Shown here: in pieces, positions 294 through 62,172 of the stretch | Position numbering within the stretch: position 1 is the stretch's first letter | How the letters are laid out: each line of letters begins with the position of its first letter | NCBI GenBank assembly: GCA_963747695.1 | Contig: CAVVFV010000010.1 | Coordinates: 164,451-228,450 of the forward strand | Source of the DNA: Candidatus Falkowbacteria bacterium | Lineage (GTDB): Bacteria > Patescibacteriota > Patescibacteriia > Patescibacteriales > WJLG01 | DNA: 64,000 nucleotides | Direction: 5' to 3' | Made by a program: the position numbers and the translations under genes | Notes under the pieces: model-generated | Told to the model about the DNA's origin: nothing | Databases searched by the model: none | Seen by the model: only the letters and a program-made list of their open reading frames with translations

Positions 294-384
294 TATGGCT
301 ATATTGCTATATTGTTATATTGTTAAGCGATTTAAATCGTTGCGTAACAATATGACAATATGACAATATAACAATTTTATGTAA
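294..384. repeat. AT-rich palindromic element (ATATTGTT arms), family copy 1
   Basis: ctatattgctatattgttatattgttaagcgatttaaatcgttgcgtaacaatatgacaatatgacaatataacaat, immediately upstream of the ftsH start. Confidence 0.6.
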
Positions 385-2382: not shown

Positions 2383-3561
2383 CTATTTGATAAACATCGC
2401 GTCGCCATAACTGTAAAACCGATATTTTTTCTTAATCGCCTCTCGATAGGCGCGATCGATATTTTTCTTGCCGGCCAAAGCGGAAACTAACATCAATAAA
2501 GTCGATTTGGGCAGATGGAAATTGGTGATCATAGCATCGACGATCTTGAATTTATATCCCGGATAAATAAAAATATCCACCCAATCCTTGAAGCCGCGTA
2601 GGCCCGCAATACTTTGCGGGCAGGCTTTTTCCTGCCAGCAGGCTTCCAAACTTCTCGCGCTTGTCGTTCCCACGGCGATTATCCGTGACCGCGGAACGCA
2701 AGGTATTGCGTTCCTACGATTTATTTCCGCGATAACCTTACCAACTATCTCTACCCACTCGGAATGCATTTTATGTTCCAAGATATTTTCCGTCTTCACC
2801 GGCGCGAAAGTTCCCATTCCGACATAAAGCGTAATTTCCAAAATCTTCACGCCTTTTTTCTTAATCTTCTTCAAAAGCTCCGGCGTAAAATGCAACCCAG
2901 CCGTCGGCGCCGCCACGCTGCCGGCCTTATTATTAGCAGCATATACGGTTTGGTATTCTTGTTTGTCTTTTTCAATGATTCTCTCTTCTCTCTTATCTTT
3001 TCTCTGATTCTCTATATACGGCGGCAGCGGCACTTCGCCGATCTTTTCAATCGCTTTCATCAGCGCCGCGCCGGATTTATTGAATTGCAAATCCCAAGTA
3101 CCATCATGATTATTCTTTAAAATGACGGCTGTCATCCTGAGCGGAGCGTCAGCGGAGTCGAAGGACCCCTTCGAAATTTTAGAAACTTTAAGTGGTTCCT
3201 CGACTTCGGCCGTGGCGGCCTTCGCTCGGAATGACAGATGTAAATTTTCGCTCACCCGGCCACCCAGTAAACACTGCCAAGTATTCGCGCTCAATTTTTT
3301 ATGCAATAAAACTTCAACTTTCCCGCCGGTTTCTTTTTTCTTCGCCCACAGCCGCGCCGGAATGACTTTGGAATTATTCAATACCAAAATATCGCCCGGA
3401 TTCAAATAATCGATGATATCAAAAAAATGCTTATGTTCGATCTTGCCCGTCTTCTTGTCCAGCACTAAAAGCCGCGAACTGTCTCGCGGCTCAGCCGGAT
3501 GCGTGGCGATCAATCCATCCGGCAAATTAAAGTCGTAATCACTCAACTTCACGTAACGCAT
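2383..3561 (-). CDS. queA: S-adenosylmethionine:tRNA ribosyltransferase-isomerase QueA, carrying two in-frame repeat-element insertions
   Basis: MRYVKLSDYDFNLPDGLIATHPAEPRDSSRLLVL...VIPARLWAKKKETGGKVEVL...PLPPYI...IIAVGTTSARSLE...YRFYSYGDAMFI. It is ~40 aa longer than typical QueA because of the insertions at 2693-2714 and 3129-3237. Confidence 0.85.
   Translation of the reverse strand: MRYVKLSDYDFNLPDGLIATHPAEPRDSSRLLVLDKKTGKIEHKHFFDIIDYLNPGDILVLNNSKVIPARLWAKKKETGGKVEVLLHKKLSANTWQCLLGGRVSENLHLSFRAKAATAEVEEPLKVSKISKGSFDSADAPLRMTAVILKNNHDGTWDLQFNKSGAALMKAIEKIGEVPLPPYIENQRKDKREERIIEKDKQEYQTVYAANNKAGSVAAPTAGLHFTPELLKKIKKKGVKILEITLYVGMGTFAPVKTENILEHKMHSEWVEIVGKVIAEINRRNAIPCVPRSRIIAVGTTSARSLEACWQEKACPQSIAGLRGFKDWVDIFIYPGYKFKIVDAMITNFHLPKSTLLMLVSALAGKKNIDRAYREAIKKKYRFYSYGDAMFIK
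2693..2714. repeat. small palindrome GGAACGCAAGGTATTGCGTTCC inside queA (encodes NAIPCVP)
   Basis: 9-bp stem with 4-nt loop. Same family in the helicase and tsaD. Confidence 0.7.
3129..3237. repeat. PE-1 palindromic element copy 1 (TGTCATCCTGAGCG...CGCTCGGAATGACAG), in frame inside queA
   Basis: 109-bp imperfect palindrome. Near-identical copies lie at 24927-25038 and 25579-25692 (both intergenic). Confidence 0.75.
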
Positions 3562-3592: not shown

Positions 3593-3675
3593 TCCCCTCT
3601 TGCCTGCCCCGCAAAGCGGAAGTGTGCGTGGGGGAGGGGTGACTCGCGCCGCGAGACGGGGAGGGTCTATTCCCG
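3593..3675. repeat. GC-rich palindromic repeat (CCCCTCT...GGGGAGGGG family)
   Basis: cccctcttgcctgccccgcaaagcggaagtgtgcgtgggggaggggtgactcgcgccgcgagacggggaggg, between the queA start and the nuclease gene end. It stands out in an otherwise AT-leaning sequence. Confidence 0.6.
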
Positions 3676-3682
3676 ACATTGG

Positions 3683-4795
3683 CTATGCAGCAGTCTCGCA
3701 TAGGACCGCAGCACCACCCGACGTCCAATAATTATCAGCAACCCTACTTATAGCCTCTATCATACCGTCCACCTTACAATTCCAACCATCTATTCCAAAA
3801 ACAGTTCTATTTGTGCCCTTCTCAACATGGATTCCAACTTTAGCAATTAGCGGTTCTAACTCTGCTATCCTAGAAATTTGTTCCGCTGAGGCCCCCTTTT
3901 TTGGATAATCAAAAGAAATTCTTAAAACTCCACCTGATTCCAAAACAAATAATGGTTTTGTGCCGAGCGAATCAAACATTGCCGAAAAAGAACTGCGAAT
4001 TGCCCCGGTGCCCCAGATTATTTTAGATTTTTGTTTTGCAAAATCATATAATTTTTTAACAGCGACAATTTTTTCGCTATCCAAATTTTTTCGCACATCT
4101 TCAAAAAAACTTTGTTCATCCCATTTCATCCGAGGGCTCTCCGATGAATTAGCAGAAACATTTTTCTTTGCCTCGATACCGAATAATTTTGGGATCATTA
4201 TTTTATATTTTTCGAACTCATAATACTCCATCTGAACAGCGTAAATATCAAATTGGCTATTTCGATTAACGTAAACGATTAAATCCCTTAATCTATCGTC
4301 AATCGAATCCATTAAAATAACAAATTTAATATTGCCGCTTTGAAGATTTCGTTTAACAGCCTCAATCAATATGCCAAATTGATCATCATCAATTTTAAAA
4401 GAAGACACAACCTTTTCCTTAAAACTAACTTTAAATTTTTCACGAATTTTATCACCAATTTTTACTATAAATTCATCAAAGTCGCTATGTCGCCACAGCG
4501 AAGCCCCATAATCCAATGCTTGGGCAACGACCTTTCTTCTGTCTGGGTTTACCTCCCTCTTAGTTTCAACGACATAAATATCGCCGTCCTTATCAATAGC
4601 CAAAGCATCGATTGGACCCGATTCAGTCGCAAATTCTCTAGCTAGCACTAATAGCTCTTTATCTTCCTCTATTTCGTAAACGGGAATTGATTCCGGATTT
4701 TCATGAATATATTCTTGTAAATACCCTTCCTTCTCGATTTCCATCTTGTTAACCCTCTTTACCTTTTGACCATCTTCTAAAACCATTAATGGCAT
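3683..4795 (-). CDS. PD-(D/E)xK (NucS/RecB-like) nuclease-domain protein with ~280-aa C-terminal region of unknown function
   Basis: N-terminal EYIHENPESIP...ELLVLAREFATESGPIDALAIDKDGDIYVVETKRE matches the D...(D/E)xK restriction-endonuclease-like motif arrangement seen in the NucS C-terminal domain and DUF4263. The remainder has no motif I recognise. Confidence 0.55.
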   Translation of the reverse strand: MPLMVLEDGQKVKRVNKMEIEKEGYLQEYIHENPESIPVYEIEEDKELLVLAREFATESGPIDALAIDKDGDIYVVETKREVNPDRRKVVAQALDYGASLWRHSDFDEFIVKIGDKIREKFKVSFKEKVVSSFKIDDDQFGILIEAVKRNLQSGNIKFVILMDSIDDRLRDLIVYVNRNSQFDIYAVQMEYYEFEKYKIMIPKLFGIEAKKNVSANSSESPRMKWDEQSFFEDVRKNLDSEKIVAVKKLYDFAKQKSKIIWGTGAIRSSFSAMFDSLGTKPLFVLESGGVLRISFDYPKKGASAEQISRIAELEPLIAKVGIHVEKGTNRTVFGIDGWNCKVDGMIEAISRVADNYWTSGGAAVLCETAA

Positions 4796-4804: not shown

Positions 4805-5839
4805 TTAAAATAGTTTTTTATCTCTTCTCTCTTCTTTTTTATCTTTCTTCAAATGCTCATACGCGTGCGGCGTCGCGATGCGGCCGCGAGGGGAACGATC
4901 TAAAAAGCCGAGGCGGATGAGATAGGGCTCATAGACATCTTCAATCGTTTCCATTTCTTCGCCCGTGGCGGCGGCGATAGTATTGAGACCAACCGGTCCG
5001 CCGGCGAATTTATCAATAATGGTTGTTAATATTTTGCGATCCACCCAATCCAGACCGAGCTCGTCGATTTCCAGCATGCCAAAAGCGTCGCGGCAAGTGT
5101 TGTCCGATAAGCAGCCATCGCCTTTGACGGCGGAATAATCGCGGACACGTTTTAGTAAGCGATTGGCAACTCTGGGCGTGCGGCGAGCGCGAGAAGCGAT
5201 CGCTTTCAAAGCGGCCGGATCAATCTCTACGCCTAAAATCTTGGCCGAGCGTTCGACTATTTTTTCAATATCTTTATCTTCGTAAAAATCCAAATGGTGA
5301 TGATGGCCAAAGCGGTCGCGCAACGGCGCGGAAAGCATGCTGACTTTGGTGGTCGCGCCGATCAAGGTGAATCTAGGCAGATCAATGCGCACCGTGCGGG
5401 CGGCCGGACCTTTACCTAAAATAATATCCAGAGCATAATCTTCCATCGCCGGATACAAAATTTCTTCCACGGTTTTGTTCAAGCGATGGATTTCGTCGAT
5501 GAACAGCACATCGCCTTCTTCCAAGTTTGATAGGATCGCCGCCAGGTCGCCGGATTTCTCAATCGCCGGGCCGGTGGTGACGCGGATGTTGGCACCCATC
5601 TCTTTCGCAATCAAATGCGCCAGCGTGGTTTTGCCTAAACCCGGCGCGCCATATAACAAAACATGCTCGATCGATTCCTTTCTCCCTTTCGCCGCCTGAA
5701 TGGTAATTTCCAAACTATCCTTAACTTTATTCTGCCCGATATAGTCGGCAAATTTCTGCGGCCGCAAAGTCAAATCTAAAGAGTTGTCTTCTTTCTCCTC
5801 TTTTGGATTAATTATTCTATTAATCGATTCTTCTGGCAT
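4805..5839 (-). CDS. ruvB: Holliday junction branch-migration helicase RuvB
   Basis: [43 protein letters not shown]...[10 protein letters not shown] (Walker A/B, sensor motifs). 344 aa. Confidence 0.9.
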
Positions 5840-5847
5840 GTTTCGTT

Positions 5848-5928
5848 AATGTTATATTGTTATATTGCTATATTGTTGCGCAACGAATTAAATAGTTTAA
5901 CAATATAGCAATATAACAATTTAGCAAT
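5848..5928. repeat. AT-rich palindromic element (ATATTGTT tandem arms), family copy 2
   Basis: atattgttatattgctatattgttgcgcaacgaattaaatagtttaacaatatagcaatataacaat. Sits immediately upstream of the ruvB start. Related copies at 294-384 and 14866-14958. Confidence 0.6.
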
Positions 5929-6274
5929 TTTCCAATATCCAACTCATTATTATATCAATAATATACCTATTTTCCTCATCGTTCAAGGCTCGGCCTTTTG
6001 GTATCTGGTGCCATTTTTCCAAACAGCCGCGGCAGCAGGTGGCCGTCGCATGTTGTCCGACGAAGACCGGATGGCCGTGGAACGGAGTCTGCTTTCCGTC
6101 GTTTTTCGGTTCCGCTGGCACCAATCGTTCTTTAATAAATTCTTCCGCGTGCATTTTTATTTCTTCAATCCCTTTCTTGTTGATATATTCCAAATTTTTC
6201 AGCTTCAACTTAAAACTTGAGCGAAACTTCGACTTGGCCAATCTGATTTTCAATTCTTCCCAACTTTTAAACAT
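5921..6274 (-). CDS. DUF4186-family protein (conserved TATCCRGCLEKWH motif)
   Basis: 117 aa with ...GKQTPFHGHPVFVGQHATATCCRGCLEKWHQIPKGRAL..., matching my recollection of DUF4186. Confidence 0.55.
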   Translation of the reverse strand: MFKSWEELKIRLAKSKFRSSFKLKLKNLEYINKKGIEEIKMHAEEFIKERLVPAEPKNDGKQTPFHGHPVFVGQHATATCCRGCLEKWHQIPKGRALNDEENRYIIDIIMSWILENC

Positions 6275-12190: not shown

Positions 12191-12227
12191 ATATCAAGCT
12201 AAAAAAATAGCTACTAAGAGAATATCT

Positions 12228-12298
12228 TCTTACTTCTTACTTCTTACTTCTTACTTCTTACTTCTTACTTCTTACTTCTTACTTCTTACTTCTTACTT
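12228..12298. repeat. tandem heptanucleotide repeat (TTCTTAC)x10
   Basis: Seen directly. Ten perfect 7-bp units between convergent uvrC and the DUF4340 gene. The last unit overlaps the TAA stop of the minus-strand gene. Confidence 0.9.
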
Positions 12299-13201
12299 CA
12301 AATCCGTCATCTTCTTATCCAGCGCGTCGCGATCGGTTTTGGAAATCAAGTAAATGTCGTCGTTAGCCGCTGACTTGGCGTAGCAGAGATTGTCTTTGGT
12401 ACAGTCGCCGATCATGATCGTATCGTCAAAATCTCCGCCTGTAACCTGGACGATGATGCTATGCTTTTCCAAACCGGTGTTGGTAAAAGTCTGGGCGGGA
12501 ATCTTCACCGCCGTCAAATTTTGCAATACGCTTAACACCGCGTCAATCTTGGTCGCATCGACGTCGAATTTCTTCGGCTGGGTGCCAGTCCACTGGTTGG
12601 CGATCTGTTCGACGGTAAATTGCCGGTCAGGATATTGGAAGCGGATCTTCTCGCTGCGTTCCTTCATAAAAGAAAAGATGGTCAGGCTGCGCCAATCGCT
12701 GCGGCCGAAAATGCTGTTCAAATCCAAAGCGATCGAAAAAGTCTTGCTGGAATCCGGCTCGGCGATGTAGGTGCCGGAGTAATCGGGCGTCGTGGTGCCG
12801 ACCACAAAATCAAAAGTCTGCCGGCCTTGTTCGATCTCGACCTTAATTCCCTGACCATCGGTACCGAAAGAACTTTTTTTATCAGCGTTGGTGCTGACCG
12901 TTTCGATCGGCAAAACGCCGATTTCATTCAGCGCCGAGTCCAAGGCGCCGGCGGCGGTATTGTCCACGCTGAAATTTTTCACGCCGGCGATCGCCCAACC
13001 ATCGGCGGTTTTGTCCAATTCGGTTTTCTGCCCGTTATTATCGATCGAGATCTTTTTAATTTGCGCCAAAGAGACGGCGGCCAGAAAATTCTTTTCCTGC
13101 CCTTTGGTTTTTTTCCAGTCAGCCAGCGGTCCGCTCCAGATCCAAGCAAAAGCGACCAGTAATATCAAAATTCCTCCCAGGATTAAATTCTTTTTAGACA
13201 T
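12293..13201 (-). CDS. DUF4340-like secreted/anchored protein (final gene of GldG-type ABC accessory cluster)
   Basis: N-terminal TM helix, 302 aa. Genomic context downstream of the GldG-like gene as commonly seen. Confidence 0.5.
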   Translation of the reverse strand: MSKKNLILGGILILLVAFAWIWSGPLADWKKTKGQEKNFLAAVSLAQIKKISIDNNGQKTELDKTADGWAIAGVKNFSVDNTAAGALDSALNEIGVLPIETVSTNADKKSSFGTDGQGIKVEIEQGRQTFDFVVGTTTPDYSGTYIAEPDSSKTFSIALDLNSIFGRSDWRSLTIFSFMKERSEKIRFQYPDRQFTVEQIANQWTGTQPKKFDVDATKIDAVLSVLQNLTAVKIPAQTFTNTGLEKHSIIVQVTGGDFDDTIMIGDCTKDNLCYAKSAANDDIYLISKTDRDALDKKMTDLK

Positions 13202-14847: not shown

Positions 14848-14865
14848 ATTTTTAAATTATTAAAT

Positions 14866-14958
14866 GTTATATTGTTATATTGTTACTCAACGAATTTGAT
14901 TACTCGGCGCATTTTTTTCACAACGCAACAATATGACAATATATCAATATGGCAATTT
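14866..14958. repeat. AT-rich palindromic element (ATATTGTT arms), family copy 3
   Basis: gttatattgttatattgttactcaacgaatttgattactcggcgcatttttttcacaacgcaacaatatgacaatatatcaatatggcaat, immediately upstream of the GldG-like start. Confidence 0.6.
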
Positions 14959-14962
14959 TATA

Positions 14963-24926: not shown

Positions 24927-25038
24927 ATTGTCATTCCGACCGAGCACGCCGCGTGCGAGCGGAGGAACCGCTTCGAGTTATTTAAAACTTTAAGGGGTCC
25001 TTCGACTGCGGCCGAGGCGGCCTTCGCTCAGGATGACA
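24927..25038. repeat. PE-1 palindromic element copy 2 (intergenic hsp20/grpE)
   Basis: ttgtcattccgaccgagcacgccgcgtgcgagcggaggaaccgcttcgag...aaggggtccttcgactgcggccgaggcggccttcgctcaggatgacaa. Confidence 0.75.
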
Positions 25039-25578: not shown

Positions 25579-25692
25579 CTGTCATTCCGACCGAACGCGC
25601 CGCGCGTGAGCGGAGGAACCGCTTCGAGTTTTTTAAAAACTTTAAGGGGTCCTTCGACTGCGGCCGCGGCGGCCTTCGCTCAGGATGACAAA
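25579..25692. repeat. PE-1 palindromic element copy 3 (intergenic grpE/hrcA)
   Basis: ctgtcattccgaccgaacgcgccgcgcgtgagcggaggaaccgcttcgag...ggccttcgctcaggatgacaa. Confidence 0.75.
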
Positions 25693-34315: not shown

Positions 34316-34394
34316 GATCAATTAAAATTAAAAATGAAAAATTAACAATTTCTCTAAAAAAACGCCGGATAATTTCCGATGTTTTTTAAATGAT

Positions 34395-34640
34395 AAAAAT
34401 TACTCATTATAGCGCGCATTGGAAAATTTTCCGTAATCACGCAGCGTATCATTCCCGCTGGCGGGAAAGGAAGCCGTGCAAAATTGCGTTGTCCGAAGCC
34501 CCGCTTCATTTATTAGGATTTTATAAAGGAAAGCGGGGCAAGTATAGCAATTTTGCTAGGCTTCATAGCGAAGTGATAGGAAATTTGTCCAGCGCGCGAT
34601 TTTTTGCGCCACTTTTTTTAAAAAAAGTGGCAAAGATGTT
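34395..34640 (+). ncRNA. conserved structured non-coding element, copy 1 (homolog at 61945-62172). Class unknown.
   Basis: Shared blocks gcgcgcattggaaaatttt / cgcagcgtatca / cgctggcggga / ccgtgcaaaattgcgttg / agcaattttgctagg / ttcatagcg / aatttgtccagc / gcgccactttttttaaaaaagtggcaaa. A variable hairpin sits between the blocks. Frame is not conserved between copies, so the tracker ORF 34390..34794 is rejected. Confidence 0.5.
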
Positions 34641-34672
34641 GATTTGTTCATTAGTAATAATGTCGGTAATAG

Positions 34673-34738
34673 ACCCTCCCCGTCTCGCCCACGCCCAAGG
34701 GGACACGGCGGGCTCGGCACCCCTGCCGTGGAGGGGAC
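34673..34738. repeat. GC-rich palindromic repeat (…GGCTCGGCACCCCTGCCGTGGAGGGG)
   Basis: Same family as 37563-37606 (gggctcggcacccctcccaagagggg). Sits just after the tyrS stop. Confidence 0.6.
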
Positions 34739-34749
34739 TTTTTTTACTT

Positions 34750-35970
34750 CTAACTTCTTACTTTGACAAATCCCCGTTTACCTTTCTGAATTAAGACTTC
34801 TTTGTCCGCCACCGCCATTTCCGCTTCCCGGTCGCTGACAGTTTGATTATCAACCTTCACGCCGCCCTGTTCGATCAATCGGCCGGCCTCGCTTTTGGAT
34901 TTGGCCAAGCCGGCTTCAACCAGAAATCAGTTAATTGATAATTTCCGGCTGACATTTTGAAGACTGGGATATCAGCCGGTACTTCTTTATTCTGCACCGT
35001 GGCTTCAAAACCGCGCTGGGCTTTTACCGCTTCATCTTCGCCGCGGACGTTTTGACGATTTCGAAAGCCATCATTTTTTTATACTCCATCGGATTGACCC
35101 CTTTGGCCATCTCGCTTTTGATTTCTTTGATCGCTTCCAGCGGAACCTCGGTCAATAATTCCAAACCCATCGCGATATGATCATCGGAATAAGACATCGC
35201 TTTGCCGTACATATCAGCGGAAGAATCGACAAATTTATGCCATTGCCCTTAGTCTTGGACATGGTCCGGCCGTCGGGCGCGTCCATCATCTTGTTGGCGC
35301 GGACAAATCTTTCTTTGCCCAAATAAGCCTTGGATAATTCACGCCCGGCCAGCATATTGAAAGTCTGGTCAGCGCCGGCAATTTCCATATCGACGTTCAT
35401 CGCCACGCCGTCATAACCTTGCATCAAGGGATAAATAAACTCGTGCAAGCCGATCGGATCGCCGGCCGCCAGACGGCGATCGAACATATCGCGATCAAGC
35501 ATCTGCTGCACGGTCATATGCGACATCAATTTGATCACTTCGTCCAGCTTTAATTGCGAAAGCCATTCATGGTTGCGTTTGAATTGGACGGGATTATCGC
35601 CGCCGAAATCAATCAGCTGCGCGGCTTGTTCTTTCCAACCCTGTAAATTTTCTTCGATCTCGGCAACGGAAAGCATCTTCCGGCCGGATTCCTTATCCGG
35701 GTCGCCAACGCGGGCGGTGTAATCACCGACCAGAAAAATCACTTCATGGCCGAGCTGTTGCAGAATGCGCATCGCCCGGATACCCATCGCGTGCCCGACG
35801 TGCAAAAATTTACCGGTCGGATCATAACCTTGGTAAATGCGCAGCCGCTCGCCCGAATACAATTTTTCCCGGAAGCCGTCAACGGAGGGATAAATCGCCT
35901 CGACGCCGCGGGTTAAGAACTTTTCAATCAATTCTTTGTCGACAATCACTTTGGACATATTTTTTATCAA
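34750..35970 (-). pseudogene. tyrS: tyrosyl-tRNA synthetase broken by three 1-nt frameshifts (or local sequencing errors)
   Basis: N-terminal part 35152..35970 (HIGH-like HVGHAMG, KMSKS-like TMSKTKGN), middle part 35024..35212 (MYGKAMSYSDDH...), C-terminal S4 domain in a third and fourth frame (...NYQLTD / FLVEAGLAKSKSEAGRLIEQGGVKVDNQTV...KGKRGFVKV). Shifts map to AAA/AAAA, TTT/TTTT and GCGG(G)CG sites. Confidence 0.75.
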
Positions 35971-45382: not shown

Positions 45383-45454
45383 GGTCCCTTCGTCTATCGG
45401 TTAGGACACCAGGTTTTCATCCTGGTAAGAGGGGTTCGACTCCCCTAGGGACTA
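45383..45454 (+). tRNA. tRNA-Glu (anticodon TTC), no encoded CCA
   Basis: GGTCCCTTCGTCTATCGGTTAGGACACCAGGTTTTCATCCTGGTAAGAGGGGTTCGACTCCCCTAGGGACTA. Acceptor GGTCCCT/AGGGACT (one GU), anticodon loop TTTTCAT, T-arm GGGGTTCGACTCCCC. Confidence 0.85.
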
Positions 45455-45668
45455 CGTAAAAGAAAACACTCGACCTCAGTCGAGTGTTTTCTTTTACGTA
45501 ATTTCGGGAGTCGAACTGGTTGCGAGCGAGCTATGAGCCGCGAGGGAACGAGCGGCGAATAAGCAAGCGACGCCAGACGCGACCAACGGGAGCGTTTGGC
45601 GGCAACCCCGGACAAAGGAGCGAAGCGCAATCCGGCGCCGAGCGACTGCGACGACTCCCCTAGGGACT
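45455..45668 (+). other. 214-bp GC-rich structured element X, copy 1: 21-bp perfect hairpin plus GC-rich core, ending in a 17-bp copy of the tRNA-Glu 3' end (CGACTCCCCTAGGGACT)
   Basis: Seen directly. ~96% identical to copy 2 (47420-47633). Copy differences include a compensatory hairpin change (gcgcaatccggcgc vs ggcggtttccgcc). Confidence 0.8.
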
Positions 45669-45680
45669 TCGGATAAATAA

Positions 45681-45710
45681 AAAATACTGACTTAACGCCA
45701 GTATTTTTTA
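45681..45710. terminator. bidirectional hairpin terminator (aatactgacttaacgccagtatt with flanking A/T runs)
   Basis: Downstream of cassette gene A1 on the minus strand. Confidence 0.6.
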
Positions 45711-45729
45711 TTTATCCGAATTTTTAAAA

Positions 45730-46392
45730 CTATTTTGCAAATCTAAAAGTTTCCACTATGGCTTTCATCATCGCATCCTCATTGAGTATATTAGATCCCA
45801 TTCCCGCCGTCATTGGATCAAATTCATAAATCAAGTTTCCTTTTTTAACAAAGTAGGAATAAGACCTCCCGTAAATAGAATCTTGGGAATAAAATGACAT
45901 AGCCTCATCGCTTGTAGGAATATCAACTTTGTTTAAATTTTCTGCTTTAGCCCCCTGACTAGAATATGCTTTTATAATCCAATCTTCAAGTGACAGATTA
46001 CTTACATTTTCGGATGCCGATATATTTACTGGGATATCAAAATCTCCACTAGACTTGGGGAAAATTTGCATGGAACCGCCATTTTGCAAAGATTTATCGC
46101 TTGATGTAAACGATACTATCCAATCCTTAGGAGCACTTATTTTATAACCATACTGTTTGTTTTCGTATGTTTGCCAATCGTTTTTATCGATTTTTACCGC
46201 ATCGATTTCAACTACGGTTGGGTGCTGTGAAATCGTCGAGGAAGCGATTGCAGACACCGGAGTAGAAGTGCTTATAGTTTCCTTTTTAACTTCTGGAACA
46301 GCTGAATGAGATTGATATTTAACAAAAATGATCAAACCCGCGACGATAATCAAAACAATGCCTACGCAAATAAAAATAATGTTTTTTTTCAT
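45730..46392 (-). CDS. cassette gene A1: N-terminally membrane-anchored extracytoplasmic protein, paralog of A2
   Basis: 220 aa. TM then Ser/Thr-rich linker. C-terminal ...AMMKAIVETFRFAK shared with A2 (...AMMKAIIETFRFTK). Confidence 0.6.
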   Translation of the reverse strand: MKKNIIFICVGIVLIIVAGLIIFVKYQSHSAVPEVKKETISTSTPVSAIASSTISQHPTVVEIDAVKIDKNDWQTYENKQYGYKISAPKDWIVSFTSSDKSLQNGGSMQIFPKSSGDFDIPVNISASENVSNLSLEDWIIKAYSSQGAKAENLNKVDIPTSDEAMSFYSQDSIYGRSYSYFVKKGNLIYEFDPMTAGMGSNILNEDAMMKAIVETFRFAK

Positions 46393-46481
46393 AGAATGAA
46401 ACTTTTTATTATGATAAATTTATAAATAATTAAAATAGGGGGCGGTGTTTTCTTGAACACCGCCCGATTAATAACCGATCA

Positions 46482-47138
46482 CTATTGGATGTGATAAACA
46501 TTGTAGCCCAGTTTTTGGTTAGCCGACGTAGGCCTGGTAAATGCGTAAAAGTCGGAATACGACACGAAGTGGGTAGAGATATAATTTTCTTTTGGCGGAT
46601 TGTTTGCCGGTGCCGCGACAAAATTACAATCCAGCATGTAAAAACCTTTCACGCCGCCCACTGTTACGTTTCCGTTTAGAAAAAAAGAAGTGTGCTGAGT
46701 AGGGTGATAGGTACCGTCAGCCCAGCGAACATTCCAATACATTTGGATAATGTCAGCTGGGACGCAATATTCGACCATTGTGCTTCTGCCTTGGATCGGC
46801 ATACATGGGGCATCCTGCCACATGCTCATGTTATTCGGATAATATGCCGGAATCTGGACGGCTTGTCCGCTTGCCGTCAAAACGACATGAGACACCCAAC
46901 CCCAACACTGCCCCGTGTTGTGGCCACCAATTTCGGAATTTGCTTTGGCAAGAATCTTACTGTCCCTAGTCGCTTGCGGCAATGCTTCCCACGTCTTCAT
47001 TGCCGTTGATTGCGTGCAACCAGAAGAAAGTGCTGCTATGGGTTGTGCGGATTGTTCTTTACTGCTATTTACGGGATTATTACTGCATCCCAAAACAACA
47101 AACAGAAAAGCAAGTGAAACAAATAGATTGGTTTTCAT
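46482..47138 (-). CDS. cassette gene B1: CHAP-domain (Cys/His amidohydrolase-peptidase-like) lipoprotein
   Basis: Signal plus lipobox ...VLGCSNNPVNSSKEQ. GQCWGWVSHVV (CHAP Cys motif) and ...TQHTSFFLNG (His). Paralog of B2. Confidence 0.6.
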   Translation of the reverse strand: MKTNLFVSLAFLFVVLGCSNNPVNSSKEQSAQPIAALSSGCTQSTAMKTWEALPQATRDSKILAKANSEIGGHNTGQCWGWVSHVVLTASGQAVQIPAYYPNNMSMWQDAPCMPIQGRSTMVEYCVPADIIQMYWNVRWADGTYHPTQHTSFFLNGNVTVGGVKGFYMLDCNFVAAPANNPPKENYISTHFVSYSDFYAFTRPTSANQKLGYNVYHIQ

Positions 47139-47419
47139 GCCAATCCTCCTTTGGTTTAGAATGGTTTAGTTTCCTGACAATAGTAATCAATTTTGAAAAG
47201 AACGAGCGTAAAAGAACCGGAACTAACTGGTATTCGCTTTCATCTCAATCTCCTTGTTAAGATTATACGATTTATTAACTATAATTAATAGGTTAGCAAA
47301 AAAAAAATGGCCTTTGTCAAATTTTTCAATAATTTAAGCCTAAAATTTTACTGGCACCAACCTTTTCCATTTCCGAATATCCTGGATGATGGGGTGTAAA
47401 TTCTCAATACAGTAGTCTA

Positions 47420-47633
47420 CGTAAAAGAAAACACTCGACCTCGGTCGAGTGTTTTCTTTTACGTAATTTCGGGAGTCGAACTGGTTGCGAGCGAGCTATG
47501 AGCCGCGAGGGAACGAGCGGCGAATAAGCGAGCGACGCCAGACGCAACCAACGGGAGCGTTTGGCGGCAACCCCGGACAAAGGAGCGAGGCGGTTTCCGC
47601 CGCCGAGCGACTGCGACGACTCCCCTAGGGACT
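47420..47633 (+). other. structured element X, copy 2
   Basis: cgtaaaagaaaacactcgacctcggtcgagtgttttcttttacgtaatttcgggagtcgaactggttgcgagcg...cgactgcgacgactcccctagggact. Confidence 0.8.
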
Positions 47634-47696
47634 ACGGATATAAAAAAGACTGATACTATCAGTCTTTTTTATTTGAATCGTTCCAATTTGTTCGAA

Positions 47697-48371
47697 CTAT
47701 TTTGTAAACCTAAAAGTTTCAATTATTGCCTTCATCATTGCATACTGATCAAGTAAATCACTATTCAAATCCATGGCACCAAAACCGAAAACATCATCGC
47801 CCTTTTTAACATAAGCACCATAAATCCCGTGTGACAATCCAACAAATGCTCCGTCGCTCGACGGAATGTTTATCTCCATTATTTGCGCGGGGTTATCCTT
47901 CGCTTCCTGGCGATATTTTTTAAGCCAAACTTCTGGTGATGAAGTGTCATGAATAATGCCAATTGCTGTAGGAGCATTAAATTTTTCATCGCTATTTGGC
48001 ATTATCAATAACTCGGTGCCATTTAAAAGATCGAGTTTCCCCGTAAAATTCCATCCCGCCGGAGCACTAATTTCAAAACCATACTTTTCATCCTTGTAAA
48101 TTTGCCAATTATTTTTATCTATTTTCACAGCGTTTATTTCTGCAAAGGTTGGATATGCTAAATTTGGAGATGAAGATGCTATCGTCCCCAAATTTGAGCT
48201 GCTAGCAACATTGTTCTGCTGGTTAATTAAAGAACTCGAAGAAGCAATTTTATTGACCTGATTTGCCCTATTCTTTTGATAACTTTTTTTCAATGGATAC
48301 TCTTTTAAAACAACAACTCCGACTACAAGTAAAATAACTGCCAGCCAAATTAAGATTGTTTTTTTCTTCAT
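47697..48371 (-). CDS. cassette gene A2 (paralog of A1)
   Basis: 224 aa, same architecture and conserved C-terminus. Confidence 0.6.
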   Translation of the reverse strand: MKKKTILIWLAVILLVVGVVVLKEYPLKKSYQKNRANQVNKIASSSSLINQQNNVASSSNLGTIASSSPNLAYPTFAEINAVKIDKNNWQIYKDEKYGFEISAPAGWNFTGKLDLLNGTELLIMPNSDEKFNAPTAIGIIHDTSSPEVWLKKYRQEAKDNPAQIMEINIPSSDGAFVGLSHGIYGAYVKKGDDVFGFGAMDLNSDLLDQYAMMKAIIETFRFTK

Positions 48372-48452
48372 ATAAATATAAAAATTATTTAAATTTAAAA
48401 ATTGGAATGGTGTATTCTGCTAAACACCATTCCAGCTAACTAATTGCTATTG

Positions 48453-49136
48453 TCACTGAATCTGATATACCGAAAAACCCAAAAGTGGATTATTCACGGT
48501 GGCGGTGGTAAATAATTTGAAATCCGCGTAGGTCACTTTATGAACACTAACCGTGTACTTCGGGCTAAAATTACAATCAATCCACATCATGCAATTTTTA
48601 GTGTCGTCCGTATAGCCACTTGTATTACTTACAACAATTGCAGTGTGTGGGCCTTGGGGACCCAAAGATCCGTTGGCTAACCTTGGTGTCCACCAAAGCT
48701 GAAATATTTGGCCAGGCGCAACCCAAGGAAGTGATGAAGCATTGCTATAAAGCTTTACGACTTGGCTGTTAAAGCAATCTGCACTTAACCATGAATAATA
48801 GTTGGGGGTGCCGCCATGATCACAAGTATTGGCACCGATCGTGATGCCGCTAACCGGCAAAACAACATACGATTGCACCCAAGGCTTACACTCAACGGGC
48901 GGAATGTAGTTACTATAGTTGTTACCATTCATTGCTTGCGCAAAGGCCAAAAGCTTCGCATTTTTTTGCGGTTGCGACAGTAAATTCCAGGCCTGCAAGG
49001 TAGGCGTTATCGTACAAGTGGTGGCTACTGCTGCAAGTGGTTGAACCAACTGTTCTTTACTGCTATTCACGGGATTATTACTGCATCCCAAAATTGCAGC
49101 TGACAAGACAAGAGCAAAACAAAGATATTTTTTCAT
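48453..49136 (-). CDS. cassette gene B2: CHAP-domain lipoprotein (paralog of B1)
   Basis: Identical lipobox region ILGCSNNPVNSSKEQ. CKPWVQSYVV and GPHTAIVVSN motifs. Confidence 0.6.
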   Translation of the reverse strand: MKKYLCFALVLSAAILGCSNNPVNSSKEQLVQPLAAVATTCTITPTLQAWNLLSQPQKNAKLLAFAQAMNGNNYSNYIPPVECKPWVQSYVVLPVSGITIGANTCDHGGTPNYYSWLSADCFNSQVVKLYSNASSLPWVAPGQIFQLWWTPRLANGSLGPQGPHTAIVVSNTSGYTDDTKNCMMWIDCNFSPKYTVSVHKVTYADFKLFTTATVNNPLLGFSVYQIQ

Positions 49137-49476
49137 ATCCAGCCCTTTGGTTGCTGAGTTGATGGTTTAATGATCTGACAATAGTAATCAATTTTTAAAA
49201 GAACAAATACTGAAAGAACATTAGCTTGAATCCATTTTTTCGCCTCCCTGTTAGAATTATACGGTTTATTAATGACTATTAACAGAGTAGCAAAAAAAAA
49301 ATGACATTCGTCAAATTTTTCAATAATTTAAGCCTAAAATTTCACTTATATAAATATCATCCATTTCTTAATATCCGCGATAATAGGATGTAAATTCTCA
49401 ATACAGTAGTCTACTGAAAATAAAATACCGCCACGCAAATTCGCGGGCGGTATAAATTATTCTGCTAAAAAAGAGC

Positions 49477-54907: not shown

Positions 54908-54982
54908 CGCGGGTATCGTATAGCGGTTATTATGCCAGTTTTCCAAACTGGTCATAGGGGTTCGACTCCCCTTACCCGCTCC
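54908..54982 (+). tRNA. tRNA-Gly (anticodon TCC), CCA encoded
   Basis: GCGGGTATCGTATAGCGGTTATTATGCCAGTTTTCCAAACTGGTCATAGGGGTTCGACTCCCCTTACCCGCTCCA. Acceptor GCGGGTA/TACCCGC, anticodon stem CCAGT/ACTGG with loop TTTCCAA. Confidence 0.85.
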
Positions 54983-56469
54983 AAAGAGAAACAAGACCTA
55001 TTTTCCAGAAATTTTTCACGCGCTTCGCGAAGCGAAGCGTAAGGTTTAATGGGCACAAATTGAATTTTTTTATCTTTCAAAAACAGGTTCGAGCCGGAAA
55101 TTTTTACGGCTGAAGATTTTTTATCCAAAAGTGATGATGAAATGGCGTTTTCGCCTATATTTACTGCGTCTTTTATCCATTCCCGCATCGGTTCGAGCCA
55201 AACTATAGACCCTCTCTTAAAATCGACGATTTTCTCCTCCAGCGACTTCTTGCGAGAGAGAAGACTCGCCTTCTCCGTGAGGTATGCCTCGCGCTCTATG
55301 TCTTGGTCTAAATATGCGGTAAGAAGGCGCTGGAGCTTCGCCTCGATAGCTATAACTTCTTCTCTCATCTCATGACTTACAGTTGCTGATAATTGGGCGG
55401 CCTCTTTTGCATCTTTGTCGGTCATTTTCAAGAGTTCTGCCGCCCAATCGGAAGGCATAGCATATTCTTTTAGGACATCAGTCAATTGCGCGATCAATTC
55501 CTTGTCTTTCATGTACGGTTGTGAGCAAGCCCCTTTCTTTTTGGTGCAGTGATAGTAAGTATATTCATGGGTCTTGCCGGATACCTGCCTTTTTATCTTA
55601 TGCTCAGCCGTAATGGAACAGCCGCACTCGCCGCACCTAAATAGCCCGCATAGCGGCTGAGGTTCGTTTTTAATCTTGTCGTGCGGTTTGCCGCGATCGG
55701 CAATCACAGCCTGCACGCGGTCAAATAATTTTTTGGAAATGATTGACTCGTGTGTGCCTTCGTAGACTTCGCCGGCATATTGGAACAGGCCGCAATAAAA
55801 AATGTCGGATAATATGCGCGATATTCTGTCCCGCTTGAATATGCTTCCGGTGTCGGCGCGCACGCCTTTCTCCGCGAAGAACGCGGAGATATCTTCAAGC
55901 CGCGAGTTGCCCTTGGCGTAAAGTTCAAAGGCGGCAATCACCACCTTCGCCGTTTTTCTCTCCACGATAATGCGTTTCGTCCGAACGTCGTTCAAGTATC
56001 CGAGCGGGGCGCGCGAAGGATATTCGCCTCTCTTAACTTTTTCGTGTAGTCCGCGTTTAGTGTTAGTGCTCAAGTCGATGATGAACTGGTTAGCCATGCC
56101 AAACTCCATGCTCATAACCAGCGTGTTGTCGGTCGAGCGATAGCTCCGGTCATGGGTTTGGATATGTTGGATAGTTCCCCGCTGTAAAAACCAGCTGATT
56201 TGTCCGCCGTCGATCGGATTGCGGGCGAGACGATCAAGTTTCCAGCAAACAATGCCTTGCGCCTCGCCTTTTTCAAGGCGCGAAAGCATCTCGCCAAATA
56301 CAGGGCGTCCAGGTCTCTTGGCTGATTGTTTTTCGATAAACTCCTCAACGATATTCAACCCTTCGGTCTTGGCCAGCGCCCGCAAGACGGCCAGCTGATC
56401 GTCAATAGAACGGACTTGCTTGTCTTCAACGTCAGTCGATTTGCGGGCGTAGAGGAAATAATTTGGCAT
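54952..56469 (-). CDS. large serine recombinase (resolvase/invertase N-terminal domain + recombinase domain + zinc-ribbon + coiled-coil)
   Basis: ...FLYARKSTDVEDKQVRSIDDQLAVLRAL (catalytic Ser region), ...GIVCWKLDRLARN, recombinase-domain motifs, CGECGCSITAEHK...YYHCTKK zinc ribbon. C-terminal 58 aa are encoded by IR-L and the last 9 aa by the tRNA-Gly 3' end. Confidence 0.85.
   Translation of the reverse strand: MPNYFLYARKSTDVEDKQVRSIDDQLAVLRALAKTEGLNIVEEFIEKQSAKRPGRPVFGEMLSRLEKGEAQGIVCWKLDRLARNPIDGGQISWFLQRGTIQHIQTHDRSYRSTDNTLVMSMEFGMANQFIIDLSTNTKRGLHEKVKRGEYPSRAPLGYLNDVRTKRIIVERKTAKVVIAAFELYAKGNSRLEDISAFFAEKGVRADTGSIFKRDRISRILSDIFYCGLFQYAGEVYEGTHESIISKKLFDRVQAVIADRGKPHDKIKNEPQPLCGLFRCGECGCSITAEHKIKRQVSGKTHEYTYYHCTKKKGACSQPYMKDKELIAQLTDVLKEYAMPSDWAAELLKMTDKDAKEAAQLSATVSHEMREEVIAIEAKLQRLLTAYLDQDIEREAYLTEKASLLSRKKSLEEKIVDFKRGSIVWLEPMREWIKDAVNIGENAISSSLLDKKSSAVKISGSNLFLKDKKIQFVPIKPYASLREAREKFLENRSCFSLERVRGVEPL
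54978..55152. repeat. IR-L: 175-bp perfect inverted repeat (partner at 56921-57094). Starts within the last 5 nt of tRNA-Gly.
   Basis: Verified by reverse-complementing block by block. Every 10-mer matched. Confidence 0.95.
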
Positions 56470-56920: not shown

Positions 56921-57094
56921 GAAAACGCCATTTCATCATCACTTTTGGATAAAAAATCTTCAGCCGTAAAAATTTCCGGCTCGAACCTGTTTTTGAAAGA
57001 TAAAAAAATTCAATTTGTGCCCATTAAACCTTACGCTTCGCTTCGCGAAGCGCGTGAAAAATTTCTGGAAAATAGGTCTTGTTTCTCTTTGGAG
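56921..57094. repeat. IR-R: inverted partner of IR-L. Encodes an alternative recombinase C-terminus on the plus strand.
   Basis: Tracker ORF 56894..57139 reproduces ENAISSSLLDKKSSAVKISGSNLFLKDKKIQFVPIKPYASLREAREKFLENRSCFSLE then continues TLRNEIRTIYTQIS. Confidence 0.95.
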
Positions 57095-57257
57095 ACGCTA
57101 AGAAACGAAATCCGAACAATTTATACCCAAATTTCTTGACGCTTTCGCCACCTGTTCAACCCCTTATCTACCCCGTTTGTTAGAACTCATCTTGGCCAAA
57201 ACGGCGGCGATTTACCGTTTCCTCTGGCAACTATTGAAGCTAACCAATAATAAAGAA

Positions 57258-59305: not shown

Positions 59306-59401
59306 TCTATAAATTTTAAAAATATTTATAATTTTTAACTTTTAATTTTTAATTGTCCCGTCTCTTGCTACATCCAACTTTCTACTCTATACTCTAAATA
59401 T

Positions 59402-61534: not shown

Positions 61535-61927
61535 ATGAAGAATTTTAACGGCGTAATAATCGAGGAGAGTCTCGAGGATAAGGATGTTTTGAAAAAAATA
61601 AATATTCTAAAAACTAAGATTGAACAAGTTACCGAGAAACATAAAACTCCCTGGATTAAACAATGGACCTTACATACGGTTGAAGTGTCAGAAAACCGGG
61701 CTGGCGATGTCGCAGAGGAAATTAGTAAATCTCTGGATTCTAAACATAATTGGTACGCTGACTTCAAAAACAATTCTTATCACTATATAATCTTTCACGG
61801 TAAAGTTTTTTTCATCGACAGAAAAAGCAGAGAACAATACGACAAAGCTAAAAAATACGGGATCTCTTTGGGCATTCCCGAATATCAGGTGGACTTCCAC
61901 CCAAACATTAAAGAATGGGAGAGATAA
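61535..61927 (+). CDS. hypothetical protein (130 aa)
   Basis: ORF directly abutting the pth stop. No motif recognised. Confidence 0.45.
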   Translation: MKNFNGVIIEESLEDKDVLKKINILKTKIEQVTEKHKTPWIKQWTLHTVEVSENRAGDVAEEISKSLDSKHNWYADFKNNSYHYIIFHGKVFFIDRKSREQYDKAKKYGISLGIPEYQVDFHPNIKEWER

Positions 61928-61944: not shown

Positions 61945-62172
61945 TTGCTGCGCGCATTGGAAAATTTTGGATAAGACGCGCAGCGTATCACCGCCGCTGG
62001 CGGGACAGGGAAACCGTGCAAAATTGCGTTGCTTGAGGAGGCGCCGCGCCGACGAGGTTAGCAATTTTGCTAGGTTTCATAGCGGAGCGTCCCAAAATTT
62101 GTCCAGCTCGCAGTTTTCTTGCCCCGTCATTTTTGCGGGGTTGCGCCACTTTTTCTAAAAAAGTGGCAAAAT
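61945..62172 (+). ncRNA. conserved structured non-coding element, copy 2 (homolog of 34395-34640). Ends in a hairpin just upstream of the Nudix start codon.
   Basis: Block-wise conservation with copy 1 (see that entry). Terminal palindrome gcgccactttttctaaaaaagtggc. Confidence 0.5.

What the first reader, a model, noticed from the sequence alone, without database searches (positions are those of the whole stretch)
34395..34640. Duplicated ~225-nt conserved non-coding element (34.4 kb and 61.9 kb), variable internal hairpin, not protein-coding
Two copies share eight ordered conserved blocks (for example CGCTGGCGGGA, CCGTGCAAAATTGCGTTG, AGCAATTTTGCTAGG, GCGCCACTTTTT...AAAAAGTGGC). The sequence between blocks differs but is hairpin-forming in both copies. 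The reading frames the ORF tracker proposes are not conserved between copies (1-nt offsets), which argues for an RNA/DNA-level element. Both copies sit just downstream of plus-strand genes. Copy 2 ends 6 nt before the Nudix hydrolase start with a hairpin that would sequester the RBS region. I could not match it to a riboswitch class from memory.
Basis: seen in the sequence. Interest (0 to 1): 0.6.

Follow-up and report, generated by a model that had tools for sequence, protein, structure and literature searches.

The report
Dispersed hairpin repeat in a CPR bacterium
The two look-alike stretches are real, non-coding copies of a young, genus-restricted family of long hairpin-forming intergenic repeats that come and go between close relatives of this tiny (Patescibacteria/CPR) bacterium, so they are not a riboswitch for the Nudix gene.

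Summary
Copies at 34412-34635 and 61950-62171 share ordered blocks. Both fold into the same long imperfect hairpin, and five base pairs differ by compensatory changes. No Rfam family matches, and the reading frames are broken by indels.

Eleven further copies were found in close relatives (13 in all). The P2 hairpin is optional and the tip is freely replaced. A 74-nt version keeps only the stem. Every copy whose 3' flank is held (12 of 13; L023 is cut) is followed by the palindrome GCCAC-Tn-An-GTGGC. Other repeat modules are spliced in.

Positions are not syntenic. The site upstream of der shows a decay series: degenerate copy, then stem-only copy, then a 10-nt remnant in this window, then nothing.

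Eleven of twelve copies point the same way as the upstream gene. Eleven of twelve lack a sigma-70-type promoter. G.U pairs outnumber A.C 22 to 5 on the plus strand.

Best reading: a lineage-specific mosaic extragenic repeat, like REP/BIME or Correia elements. It is probably co-transcribed and folds as an RNA hairpin at the 3' ends of genes. The riboswitch reading is not supported. An independent small RNA or a DNA-level mobilisation site remain possible.

The parts
34388..34411 (+). Copy 1: AT-rich leader (AAATGATAAAAATTACTCATTATA) ending in ATAG just before the stem. Most copies carry a related leader, AAATAAAT..CCTTRTA.
   Evidence: Anchored comparison of the upstream flanks of 13 copies. 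No sigma-70-type promoter match.
34412..34440 (+). Copy 1: 5' arm of the closing stem P1. It reads GCGCGC, AU bulge, UGGA, AAAUUUUCC, GUAA bulge, UCAC (arm type A).
   Evidence: Folds and pair list.
34441..34451 (+). Copy 1: 5' strand of the central internal loop, GCAGCGUAUCA. It is identical in both window copies.
   Evidence: Alignments.
34452..34469 (+). Copy 1: optional P2 hairpin (core CCGCUGGCGGG at 34455-34465). It is absent from 6 full-length copies elsewhere.
34470..34564 (+). Copy 1: apical stem P3. It is made of GAAGCC/GGCUUC and GCAAAAUUGC/GCAAUUUUGC, with a variable hairpin tip at 34488-34546.
   Evidence: Folds. Compensatory changes in P3 across copies.
34565..34572 (+). Copy 1: 3' strand of the central internal loop, AUAGCGAA. 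The core AGCG faces AGCG on the 5' strand.
   Evidence: Alignment.
34573..34597 (+). Copy 1: 3' arm of P1, reading GUGA UA GGAAAUUU G UCCA GCGCGC.
34598..34635 (+). Copy 1: U-run linker GAUUUUUUGC, then the palindrome GCCAC-T7-A7-GTGGC (34608-34631), then AAAG. The palindrome occurs only next to this element.
   Evidence: A terminator-like hairpin GCGCGA-UUUU-UUGCGC followed by CAC-U7 is predicted at 34594-34609.
34655..34745 (+). A separate GC-rich hairpin repeat module joined onto copy 1. It starts AATAATGTCGG and ends in the terminator-like hairpin 34720-34736 plus a T-run. The same family is scattered through the window.
   Evidence: Repeat families D14, I4, I6-I8 and I21. Terminator scan. 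The same module follows the element in L013, L017 and L031.
61950..61979 (+). Copy 2: 5' arm of P1. It reads GCGCGC, AU, UGGA, AAAUUUUGG, AUAA bulge, GACGC (arm type B).
61980..62009 (+). Copy 2: internal-loop strand GCAGCGUAUCA (61980-61990) plus the optional P2 hairpin (core at 61994-62004).
62010..62078 (+). Copy 2: apical stem P3. It is made of GAAACC/GGUUUC and GCAAAAUUGC/GCAAUUUUGC, with a short GC-rich tip at 62028-62060.
62079..62111 (+). Copy 2: 3' internal-loop strand AUAGCGGA (62079-62086) and the 3' arm of P1 (GCGUC CCAAAAUUU G UCCA GCUCGC).
62112..62171 (+). Copy 2: U-rich linker, an inserted hairpin module CCCCGUCAUUUUUGCGGGG (62122-62140, also present in the L013 stem-only copy), the palindrome GCCAC-T5CT-A6-GTGGC (62145-62167), and AAAA. 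The Nudix ATG follows at 62179.
59353..59362 (+). Remnant (TTGTCCCGTC) of a lost third copy upstream of der. At the orthologous site L031 has a 149-nt copy and L013 a 74-nt stem-only copy.
   Evidence: No element at this site in L014 or L029.

Best explanation
These are two copies of a young, narrowly distributed family of dispersed, modular extragenic repeats in one Patescibacteria (CPR) lineage.

The unit is built from these parts, in order:
- an AT-rich leader ending in (G/A)TAG;
- a roughly 24-bp imperfect closing stem with fixed bulges;
- an internal loop with AGCG on both strands;
- an apical stem whose tip and side hairpin are exchangeable modules;
- a U-run;
- the palindrome GCCAC-Tn-An-GTGGC.

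Copies are gained at the 3' side of genes, often next to variable accessory ORFs. They recombine with each other and with other repeat modules, and they decay by deletion.

The hairpin is kept on the strand that matches the upstream gene. The most likely working form is therefore RNA: the element is read through from the upstream gene and folds into a long hairpin at the 3' end of the message. There it would block 3' exonucleases, offer an RNase III site, or help termination. This is how REP/BIME and Correia elements behave.

Shown: the repeat family, the fold, the covariation, the mosaic build, the gain and loss, the orientation bias, and the lack of a promoter.

Inferred: transcription by read-through, the stabiliser or terminator role, and the way copies spread.
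For: - Thirteen copies in the window and close relatives.
- The fold is conserved. 94.7% of cells are paired. 13 pairs carry changes on both sides, against 4.2 +/- 1.5 in shuffles and 0-5 in slid controls.
- Modularity: P2 is absent in 6 full-length copies, the tip is replaced by unrelated hairpins, and a 74-nt version keeps only the stem. Other modules are inserted between the stem and the palindrome.
- The palindrome is found only beside the element.
- Positions are not syntenic. The pth-nudix site is filled here and empty in L013. The ruvB-downstream site is filled in L023 and L025 and empty here.
- The der-upstream site shows a decay series: L031, then L013, then the window remnant, then none in L014 or L029.
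- The element has the same orientation as the upstream gene in 11 of 12 copies.
- 11 of 12 copies have no sigma-70-type promoter within 100 nt upstream. The same rule does find the der and tRNA-Glu promoters.
- G.U pairs outnumber A.C 22 to 5 on the plus strand. The plus strand folds 3-9 kcal/mol better than its complement in 10 of 12 copies.
- The family is narrow. Nothing was found in GTDB representatives with my first pattern. A translated-profile search of 5.8 billion proteins gave only 4 hits. Nothing in phages, plasmids or IMG/VR.
Against: - There are no transcript data, so read-through is assumed.
- About five copies are preceded by a terminator-like hairpin or T-run, which would limit read-through.
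- The L017 copy is antisense to both neighbouring genes.
- Between the two window copies the loops are invariant and the stems covary. That is the signature of a selected RNA rather than a drifting repeat.
- No terminal target duplication and no cognate transposase or recombinase were found, so the means of spread is unknown.
- The copies share ancestry. The covariation reduces to a few events: two arm types plus changes in P3. Two copies (L019b, L028) combine a type-B 5' arm with a different 3' arm and fold poorly.
Confidence: 0.55

Rival explanations
1. It is an independent, trans-acting small RNA gene family. This could be a rod-shaped RNA with a central bubble that binds RNA polymerase like 6S RNA, or another protein-binding RNA. 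It would be transcribed from its own weak or non-canonical promoter in the AT-rich leader and ended by the GC-rich base of P1 plus the U-run.
For: - The shape is a rod about 150-200 nt long: closing stem, central internal loop, apical stem.
- Loops are invariant and stems covary between the two window copies.
- The plus strand shows a G.U excess.
- A U-run follows the stem directly in most copies.
- A TAAATA-like hexamer lies 11-13 nt before the stem in most copies.
- The L017 copy lies antisense to its neighbours and would need its own promoter.
Against: - 11 of 12 copies have no sigma-70-type promoter, although this genome's der and tRNA-Glu promoters are canonical.
- No Rfam 6S or other hit, even at E <= 10.
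- Copies are not syntenic between relatives whose Der proteins are 87-90% identical, and they decay to stem-only or remnant forms.
- The central loop is only 8 x 8 nt and can partly pair.
- An 11-of-12 orientation bias towards the upstream gene is not expected for free-standing genes.
Confidence: 0.2
2. The hairpin works as single-stranded DNA. It would be the recognition structure by which the repeat is mobilised. One option is an HUH (RAYT/IS200-type) enzyme, as for REPs, which carry GTAG just 5' of the hairpin. The other is a site-specific recombinase acting on the palindrome. In that case ORF-plus-element units would be exchanged like cassettes at the stop codons of core genes.
For: - (G/A)TAG sits immediately 5' of the stem in 9 of 13 copies.
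- The bulges are fixed while the terminal structure varies, as in attC sites.
- The palindrome has 12-nt arms and travels only with the element.
- Three cases show a variable ORF that starts 0-1 nt after, or is fused to, the end of a core gene and ends 10-22 nt before the element: pth then the 130-aa ORF, ruvB then a 156-aa ORF, and ruvB then a 145-aa ORF.
- In this window the ruvB site holds a defence-like gene resembling PDC-S11.
Against: - None of the roughly 40 window ORFs scanned is an HUH transposase, and no tyrosine recombinase was seen. The only recombinase is a large serine recombinase 7 kb away, inside its own inverted repeats.
- The attC core sites (RYYYAAC / GTTRRRY) are absent on inspection.
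- No target duplication.
- The G.U over A.C asymmetry fits RNA better than DNA.
- The 130-aa ORF has no element nearby in other lineages.
Confidence: 0.17
3. It is a riboswitch or other cis-regulatory leader that controls the Nudix hydrolase by hiding its ribosome-binding site.
For: - Copy 2 lies directly upstream of Nudix, and its palindrome ends 11 nt before the ATG.
- In P2-bearing copies the fold has a multi-stem junction.
Against: - Copy 1 and four other copies face a convergent gene.
- The downstream genes are unrelated to one another.
- The L013 Nudix orthologue has no element upstream.
- The junction hairpin is optional.
- No Rfam riboswitch hit.
Confidence: 0.03
4. It is a small protein-coding gene, such as the 134-aa ORF 34390-34794 or the 63-aa ORF 61967-62158.
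For: - One frame stays open across the element in several copies.
- Gene callers have annotated such ORFs.
Against: - Indels of 1, 22 and 26 nt and swapped tips change the frame between copies. The translations agree only over short stretches.
- No conserved start codon.
- Only 4 such ORFs among 5.8 billion proteins.
- The substitutions keep base pairs, not codons.
Confidence: 0.01

Closest known systems
REP / BIME elements of enterobacteria (repetitive extragenic palindromes in mosaic arrays)
   Same: - Extragenic imperfect palindromes at the 3' side of genes.
- A bias in orientation.
- Joined to other short motifs in mosaic combinations.
- A (G/A)TAG just 5' of the hairpin in most copies.
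- Presence varies between relatives.
- The presumed role is an RNA hairpin in the 3' UTR.
   Different: - The hairpin is 74-200 nt, not 20-40 nt.
- It has a branched or exchangeable tip and an obligatory second palindrome.
- No RAYT gene was seen in the DNA available.
- Only about 2 copies per 64 kb.
- It occurs in a CPR bacterium, where I found no such family described in the paper library.
Correia elements (NEMIS/CREE) of Neisseria, and similar hairpin MITEs (ERIC, RUP, BOX)
   Same: - 100-200 nt inverted-repeat elements in intergenic DNA.
- Long and short forms that differ by an internal deletion.
- Co-transcribed into hairpins that RNase III can cut.
- Present or absent between strains.
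- Modular build, as in BOX elements.
   Different: - No terminal target-site duplication (TA in Correia) was found.
- The arms carry conserved bulges rather than near-perfect terminal repeats.
- There is an extra palindrome module.
- The host is different.
6S RNA
   Same: - Length of 150-200 nt.
- A closing stem, a central loop (with a small hairpin on the 5' side in some copies) and an apical stem.
- Two copies in one genome, as in Bacillus.
   Different: - No match to the Rfam 6S models.
- A small 8 x 8 loop.
- No promoter.
- Not syntenic, and copies decay.
Integron attC recombination sites
   Same: - Lies downstream of promoter-less ORFs.
- An imperfect hairpin with fixed extrahelical bases and a variable terminal structure.
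   Different: - The core sites RYYYAAC / GTTRRRY are absent.
- No integron integrase and no array.
- Much longer than attC.

Membership tests
Riboswitch / cis-regulatory leader | The same structured element recurs upstream of homologous or functionally linked genes. | tested here: not met
   The 13 copies precede unrelated genes or face convergent genes. The Nudix orthologue in L013 lacks the element.
Riboswitch / cis-regulatory leader | Match to a curated aptamer model. | tested here: not met
   No Rfam hit at the gathering threshold. At E <= 10 there were only chance microRNA or sRNA matches far below their cut-offs.
6S RNA | Match to the Rfam 6S covariance models. | tested here: not met
   Searches list no 6S family, even at E <= 10.
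6S RNA | A housekeeping gene kept at a stable locus with its own promoter. | tested here: not met
   Not syntenic among relatives whose Der proteins are 87-90% identical. The der locus shows a decay series. 11 of 12 copies have no promoter.
6S RNA | Binds sigma-70 holoenzyme and templates product RNA. | not testable with these tools
   Needs biochemistry.
REP/BIME-type extragenic palindromes | A dispersed imperfect palindrome in extragenic DNA, combined in a mosaic with other motifs. | tested here: met
   All 13 copies are intergenic. Hairpin 2, the GC-rich module and terminator modules are spliced in at the linker.
REP/BIME-type extragenic palindromes | A conserved GTAG-type tetranucleotide 5' of the hairpin. 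| tested here: inconclusive
   GTAG or ATAG in 9 of 13 copies. It could be chance or shared ancestry.
REP/BIME-type extragenic palindromes | An associated RAYT (HUH) transposase in the genome. | tested here: inconclusive
   None among about 40 window ORFs scanned with Pfam. The rest of the 454-kb contig was not available.
REP/BIME-type extragenic palindromes | A short unit (20-40 nt) in high copy number. | tested here: not met
   The unit is 74-200 nt, with 2 copies in 64 kb.
MITE (for example Correia) | Terminal inverted repeats. | tested here: met
   The P1 arms are imperfect inverted repeats of about 29 nt at the ends of the core.
MITE (for example Correia) | A target-site duplication flanking the element. 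| tested here: not met
   No direct repeat at either candidate boundary in the aligned flanks.
MITE (for example Correia) | Insertion polymorphism, with long and short forms. | tested here: met
   Filled versus empty sites at pth-nudix, ruvB and der. The 74-nt stem-only form looks like a deletion between two AGCG repeats.
Integron attC | Core sites R'' RYYYAAC and R' GTTRRRY at the base of the hairpin, with an integron integrase nearby. | tested here: not met
   By inspection the stem base is GCGCGC/GCGCGC. No tyrosine integrase appeared in the ORFs scanned.
Intrinsic terminator | A GC-rich stem followed directly by a U-run. | tested here: inconclusive
   The base of P1 (GCGCGC) is followed by U5-6 in 9 of 13 copies, but its 5' arm lies 70-185 nt upstream. 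In copy 1 a local hairpin plus U7 is predicted at 34594-34609. None is predicted for copy 2.

The most novel reading that the evidence does not exclude
The element is a portable structured-RNA or hairpin module that marks the 3' boundary of exchangeable, promoter-less accessory-gene cassettes. These cassettes would be inserted exactly at the stop codons of core genes. Three cases fit: pth then a 130-aa ORF, and ruvB then a 156-aa or a 145-aa ORF, each followed within 10-22 nt by the element and its palindrome. That would be an undescribed cassette-capture system in CPR bacteria. Alternatively, it is a mobile protein-binding rod RNA with a conserved AGCG/AGCG loop.
Probability: 0.1. Interest if true: 0.7.

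Novelty: new member of a known kind. Interest (0 to 1): 0.35.

Why it matters
CPR/Patescibacteria genomes are small and are usually described as streamlined. A family of long, modular hairpin repeats that are gained, shuffled and eroded within one genus shows that these genomes also carry REP/BIME- or Correia-like selfish or regulatory DNA.

These repeats mark hot spots where accessory genes are swapped, including a defence-like gene. They also break metagenome assemblies: two copies sit at contig ends. Gene callers mis-annotate them as hypothetical proteins, for example the 134-aa ORF at 34390-34794.

The practical point is to mask or model the family. For Nudix, the point is that there is no evidence of a riboswitch.

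Tried and rejected
1. Rfam at gathering and at E <= 10 on both copies gave nothing relevant.

2. My single scan of GTDB representative genomes used too strict a pattern (GCAGCGTATCA..GGGA..GGAANCC). It returned 9 chance hits in unrelated phyla. The L013 copy, found later, differs at two of the fixed bases, so absence from GTDB is not shown.

3. Synteny through the 130-aa ORF failed. That protein is a highly conserved, horizontally spread hypothetical found in CPR bacteria and archaea, and it has no element nearby elsewhere.

4. Searches of phage, plasmid and IMG/VR collections found no true match.

5. A translated-profile search for mis-called ORFs gave only 4 hits. Two of them were new copies.

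6. I considered a type I toxin-antitoxin locus. No conserved small ORF exists on either strand, and the ATG in CATAGCG is lost in the CCTAGCG variants.

7. I considered a sigma-54 or sigma-70 promoter inside the palindrome or its flank. By inspection no spacing fits.

8. I considered attC. The core sites are absent.

9. Two look-ups of relatives returned gene lists but no DNA.

Full report
**Observation.** The two stretches exist as described. They align at 82% column identity over a 203-column core. Each copy, folded alone as RNA, gives the same architecture. The energies are far below those of shuffles: -94.5 kcal/mol (z = -7.95) and -101 kcal/mol (z = -5.37). A covariance model built from the pair (R1) finds only these two copies in the window.

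**Anatomy.** The core spans 34412-34597 in copy 1 and 61950-62111 in copy 2. Its parts are:
- A closing stem, P1: GCGCGC, an AU bulge, UGGA, a 9-bp A/U-rich helix, an RUAA bulge, then 4-5 bp.
- An internal loop with GCAGCGUA(UCA) on the 5' side and AUAGCGRA on the 3' side, so AGCG faces AGCG.
- A small side hairpin, P2 (CCGCUGGCGGG).
- An apical stem, P3 (GAARCC/GGYUUC and GCAAAAUUGC/GCAAUUUUGC) with a tip that differs between the copies.

Five of the 42 shared pairs differ on both sides between the two copies and remain paired. After P1 comes a U-run and then the palindrome GCCAC-Tn-An-GTGGC. Copy 2 has one more hairpin (62122-62140) spliced in between.

**Not a known RNA, and not coding.**
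- Rfam 15 gives only tRNAs at the gathering threshold. At E <= 10 it gives only chance matches on either copy.
- The ORFs that span the element (34390-34794 and 61967-62158) do not keep a frame between copies. There are indels of 1, 22 and 26 nt, and the tips are swapped.

**Host.** The neighbouring genes are a T4SS-type pilin, a class I (Trp/Tyr-type) tRNA synthetase, Der, Pth, Nudix and DprA. Their best protein matches place the window in a Patescibacteria (CPR) chromosome, on a 453,905-bp NCBI contig.

**Relatives.**
- My scan of GTDB representative genomes used too strict a pattern and returned only chance hits.
- Fetching the der region of relatives gave L013 (Der 90% identical). It has a full copy downstream of a NERD gene, with a short GC-rich apex, and a 74-nt copy upstream of der that keeps only P1.
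- A looser pattern scanned over JGI metagenomes gave five true loci holding six copies, plus seven chance hits in coding DNA.
- A profile of the spurious translations, searched against 5.8 billion proteins, found only four ORFs. Two of them led to new copies, L027 and L028.
- L031 (Der 87% identical) added one more copy.
- Nothing was found in phages, plasmids or IMG/VR.
- The total is thirteen copies, all from close relatives.

**What the copies show.**
- P2 is optional. Six full-length copies go straight from GCAGCGUA to P3, so the basic form is a rod.
- The apex is exchangeable. It is a short GC hairpin in L013 and an unrelated long palindrome in L019a.
- P1 comes in two arm types, A (UUUUCC-GUAA-UCAC / GUGA-UA-GGAAA) and B (UUUUGG-AUAA-GACGC / GCGUC-CCAAAA). 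Each type is internally complementary.
- Two copies from different samples (L019b, L028) combine a type-B 5' arm with a different 3' arm and fold poorly.
- On the model-fitted alignment 94.7% of cells pair. Thirteen pairs carry changes on both sides, against 4.2 +/- 1.5 in shuffles (0 of 500 as high) and 0-5 in slid controls. The copies share ancestry, so these reduce to a handful of events.
- G.U pairs outnumber A.C 22 to 5 on the plus strand.
- The plus strand folds 3-9 kcal/mol better than its complement in 10 of 12 copies. The two exceptions are the degenerate der-locus copies.

**Genomic behaviour.**
- *Not syntenic.* The pth-nudix site is filled here and empty in L013.
- *A variable site downstream of ruvB.* L025 and L023 each carry a different small ORF followed by the element. 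This window instead has a 370-aa defence-like gene (PDC-S11-like) and a GC-rich hairpin module.
- *A decay series upstream of der.* L031 has a 149-nt degenerate copy, L013 the 74-nt stem-only copy, and this window only TTGTCCCGTC at 59353-59362. L014 and L029 (Der 82-84% identical) have nothing.
- *Orientation.* Eleven of twelve copies point the same way as the upstream gene. L017 is antisense to both of its neighbours.
- *No promoter.* Eleven of twelve have no sigma-70-type promoter within 100 nt upstream. The same rule does recover the der and tRNA-Glu promoters of this genome.
- *Mosaic build.* The palindrome occurs only beside the element. Other repeat modules, namely hairpin 2, the GC-rich terminator module of families D14/I4 and an A7-hairpin-T7 module, are spliced in at the linker or abut the unit.
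- *No transposase seen.* No HUH transposase appears among about 40 window ORFs. The only recombinase is a large serine recombinase inside its own 182-nt inverted repeats.

**Interpretation.** The distribution rules out a riboswitch for Nudix and a housekeeping RNA such as 6S. The best fit is a young, lineage-specific mosaic extragenic repeat. It works like REP/BIME and Correia elements, and I file it under that general kind, not as a REP or a Correia element proper, because each fails a defining test (unit length and copy number; target-site duplication).

Three observations point to an RNA hairpin formed on read-through transcripts at the 3' ends of genes: the hairpin is preserved on the gene-sense strand, G.U pairs are tolerated, and there is no promoter. 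The RNA would act as a stabiliser, a processing site or a terminator aid. That step is inferred, not shown.

Several facts count against this reading. About five copies sit behind a terminator-like hairpin or T-run. The L017 copy is antisense. The two window copies show the pattern of invariant loops with covarying stems that is typical of a selected RNA.

The rivals and my confidence in each:
- An independent small RNA: 0.2.
- A single-stranded-DNA recognition hairpin for mobilisation or cassette exchange: about 0.17.
- A riboswitch: 0.03.
- A protein-coding gene: 0.01.

The DNA-level reading draws on three points: (G/A)TAG lies 5' of the stem in 9 of 13 copies, the palindrome always accompanies the element, and in three cases a variable ORF starts at the stop codon of a core gene and ends 10-22 nt before the element.

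**Novelty.** I found no description of such a family in CPR bacteria in the paper library. The kind is known, so this is a new member of it. Interest is modest. The most novel reading still open is a cassette-boundary module or a mobile protein-binding rod RNA, at a probability of about 0.1.

Noticed in passing
window 61535-61927 (+): The 130-aa ORF just upstream of copy 2 has no Pfam, NCBIfam or PADLOC match. Yet it has more than 3000 homologues at 70-81% identity in CPR bacteria and in archaea labelled Nanoarchaeota and Bathyarchaeia, in unrelated gene contexts. It is a very conserved small protein of unknown function that has spread horizontally. Here it starts 1 nt after the pth stop codon.
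   Followed up: partly
window 7498, 19827, 20643, 21124, 21194, 24304, 37563, 34655-34745, 3600-3680: A second dispersed repeat family. It consists of GC-rich hairpins (ACACACCCCG...CCCCTCT.GAGAGGGG), often opening with AATAATGTCGG and ending in a T-run. They occur in both orientations and look like portable terminator modules. One is joined onto copy 1.
   Followed up: partly
window 54952-56469 (-), with 182-nt inverted repeats at 54971-55152 and 56921-57102, next to tRNA-Gly at 54909-54983: A large serine recombinase gene is bracketed by 98%-complementary 182-nt inverted repeats beside a tRNA gene. This could be an invertible segment or an integrated element.
   Followed up: no
window 3683-4795 (-): The 370-aa gene downstream of ruvB matches the PADLOC candidate defence family PDC-S11 (E = 6e-21) and has a weak NucS-like domain. 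The same site in relatives L023 and L025 holds different small ORFs, so it is an accessory-gene hot spot.
   Followed up: partly
window 45452-49428: A roughly 2-kb tandem duplication (repeat families D2, D3, D8, D17, 70-95% identical). It carries paralogous genes of about 220 aa with no Pfam match, directly after tRNA-Glu.
   Followed up: no
window 287-380, 5838-5933, 14863-14961: Arrays of an 8-nt periodic motif (ATATTGTT / ATATTGCT) lie at three intergenic sites, partly as inverted copies of one another. They resemble iterons or operator arrays.
   Followed up: no
window 12226-12305: A perfect tandem array of a 7-nt unit, (CTTCTTA)n, about 11 units long. A shorter echo lies at 34741-34763, just downstream of copy 1.
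   Followed up: no
window 3155-3236, 24957-25038, 25609-25690: An 82-nt repeat with internal dyad symmetry lies between the hsp20, grpE and hrcA genes, and again near 3.2 kb. It could be a heat-shock operator or another hairpin repeat.
   Followed up: no
L023 1-103 and L010 994-1029: Copies of the element sit at the very ends of metagenome contigs. The repeat appears to break assemblies.
   Followed up: no
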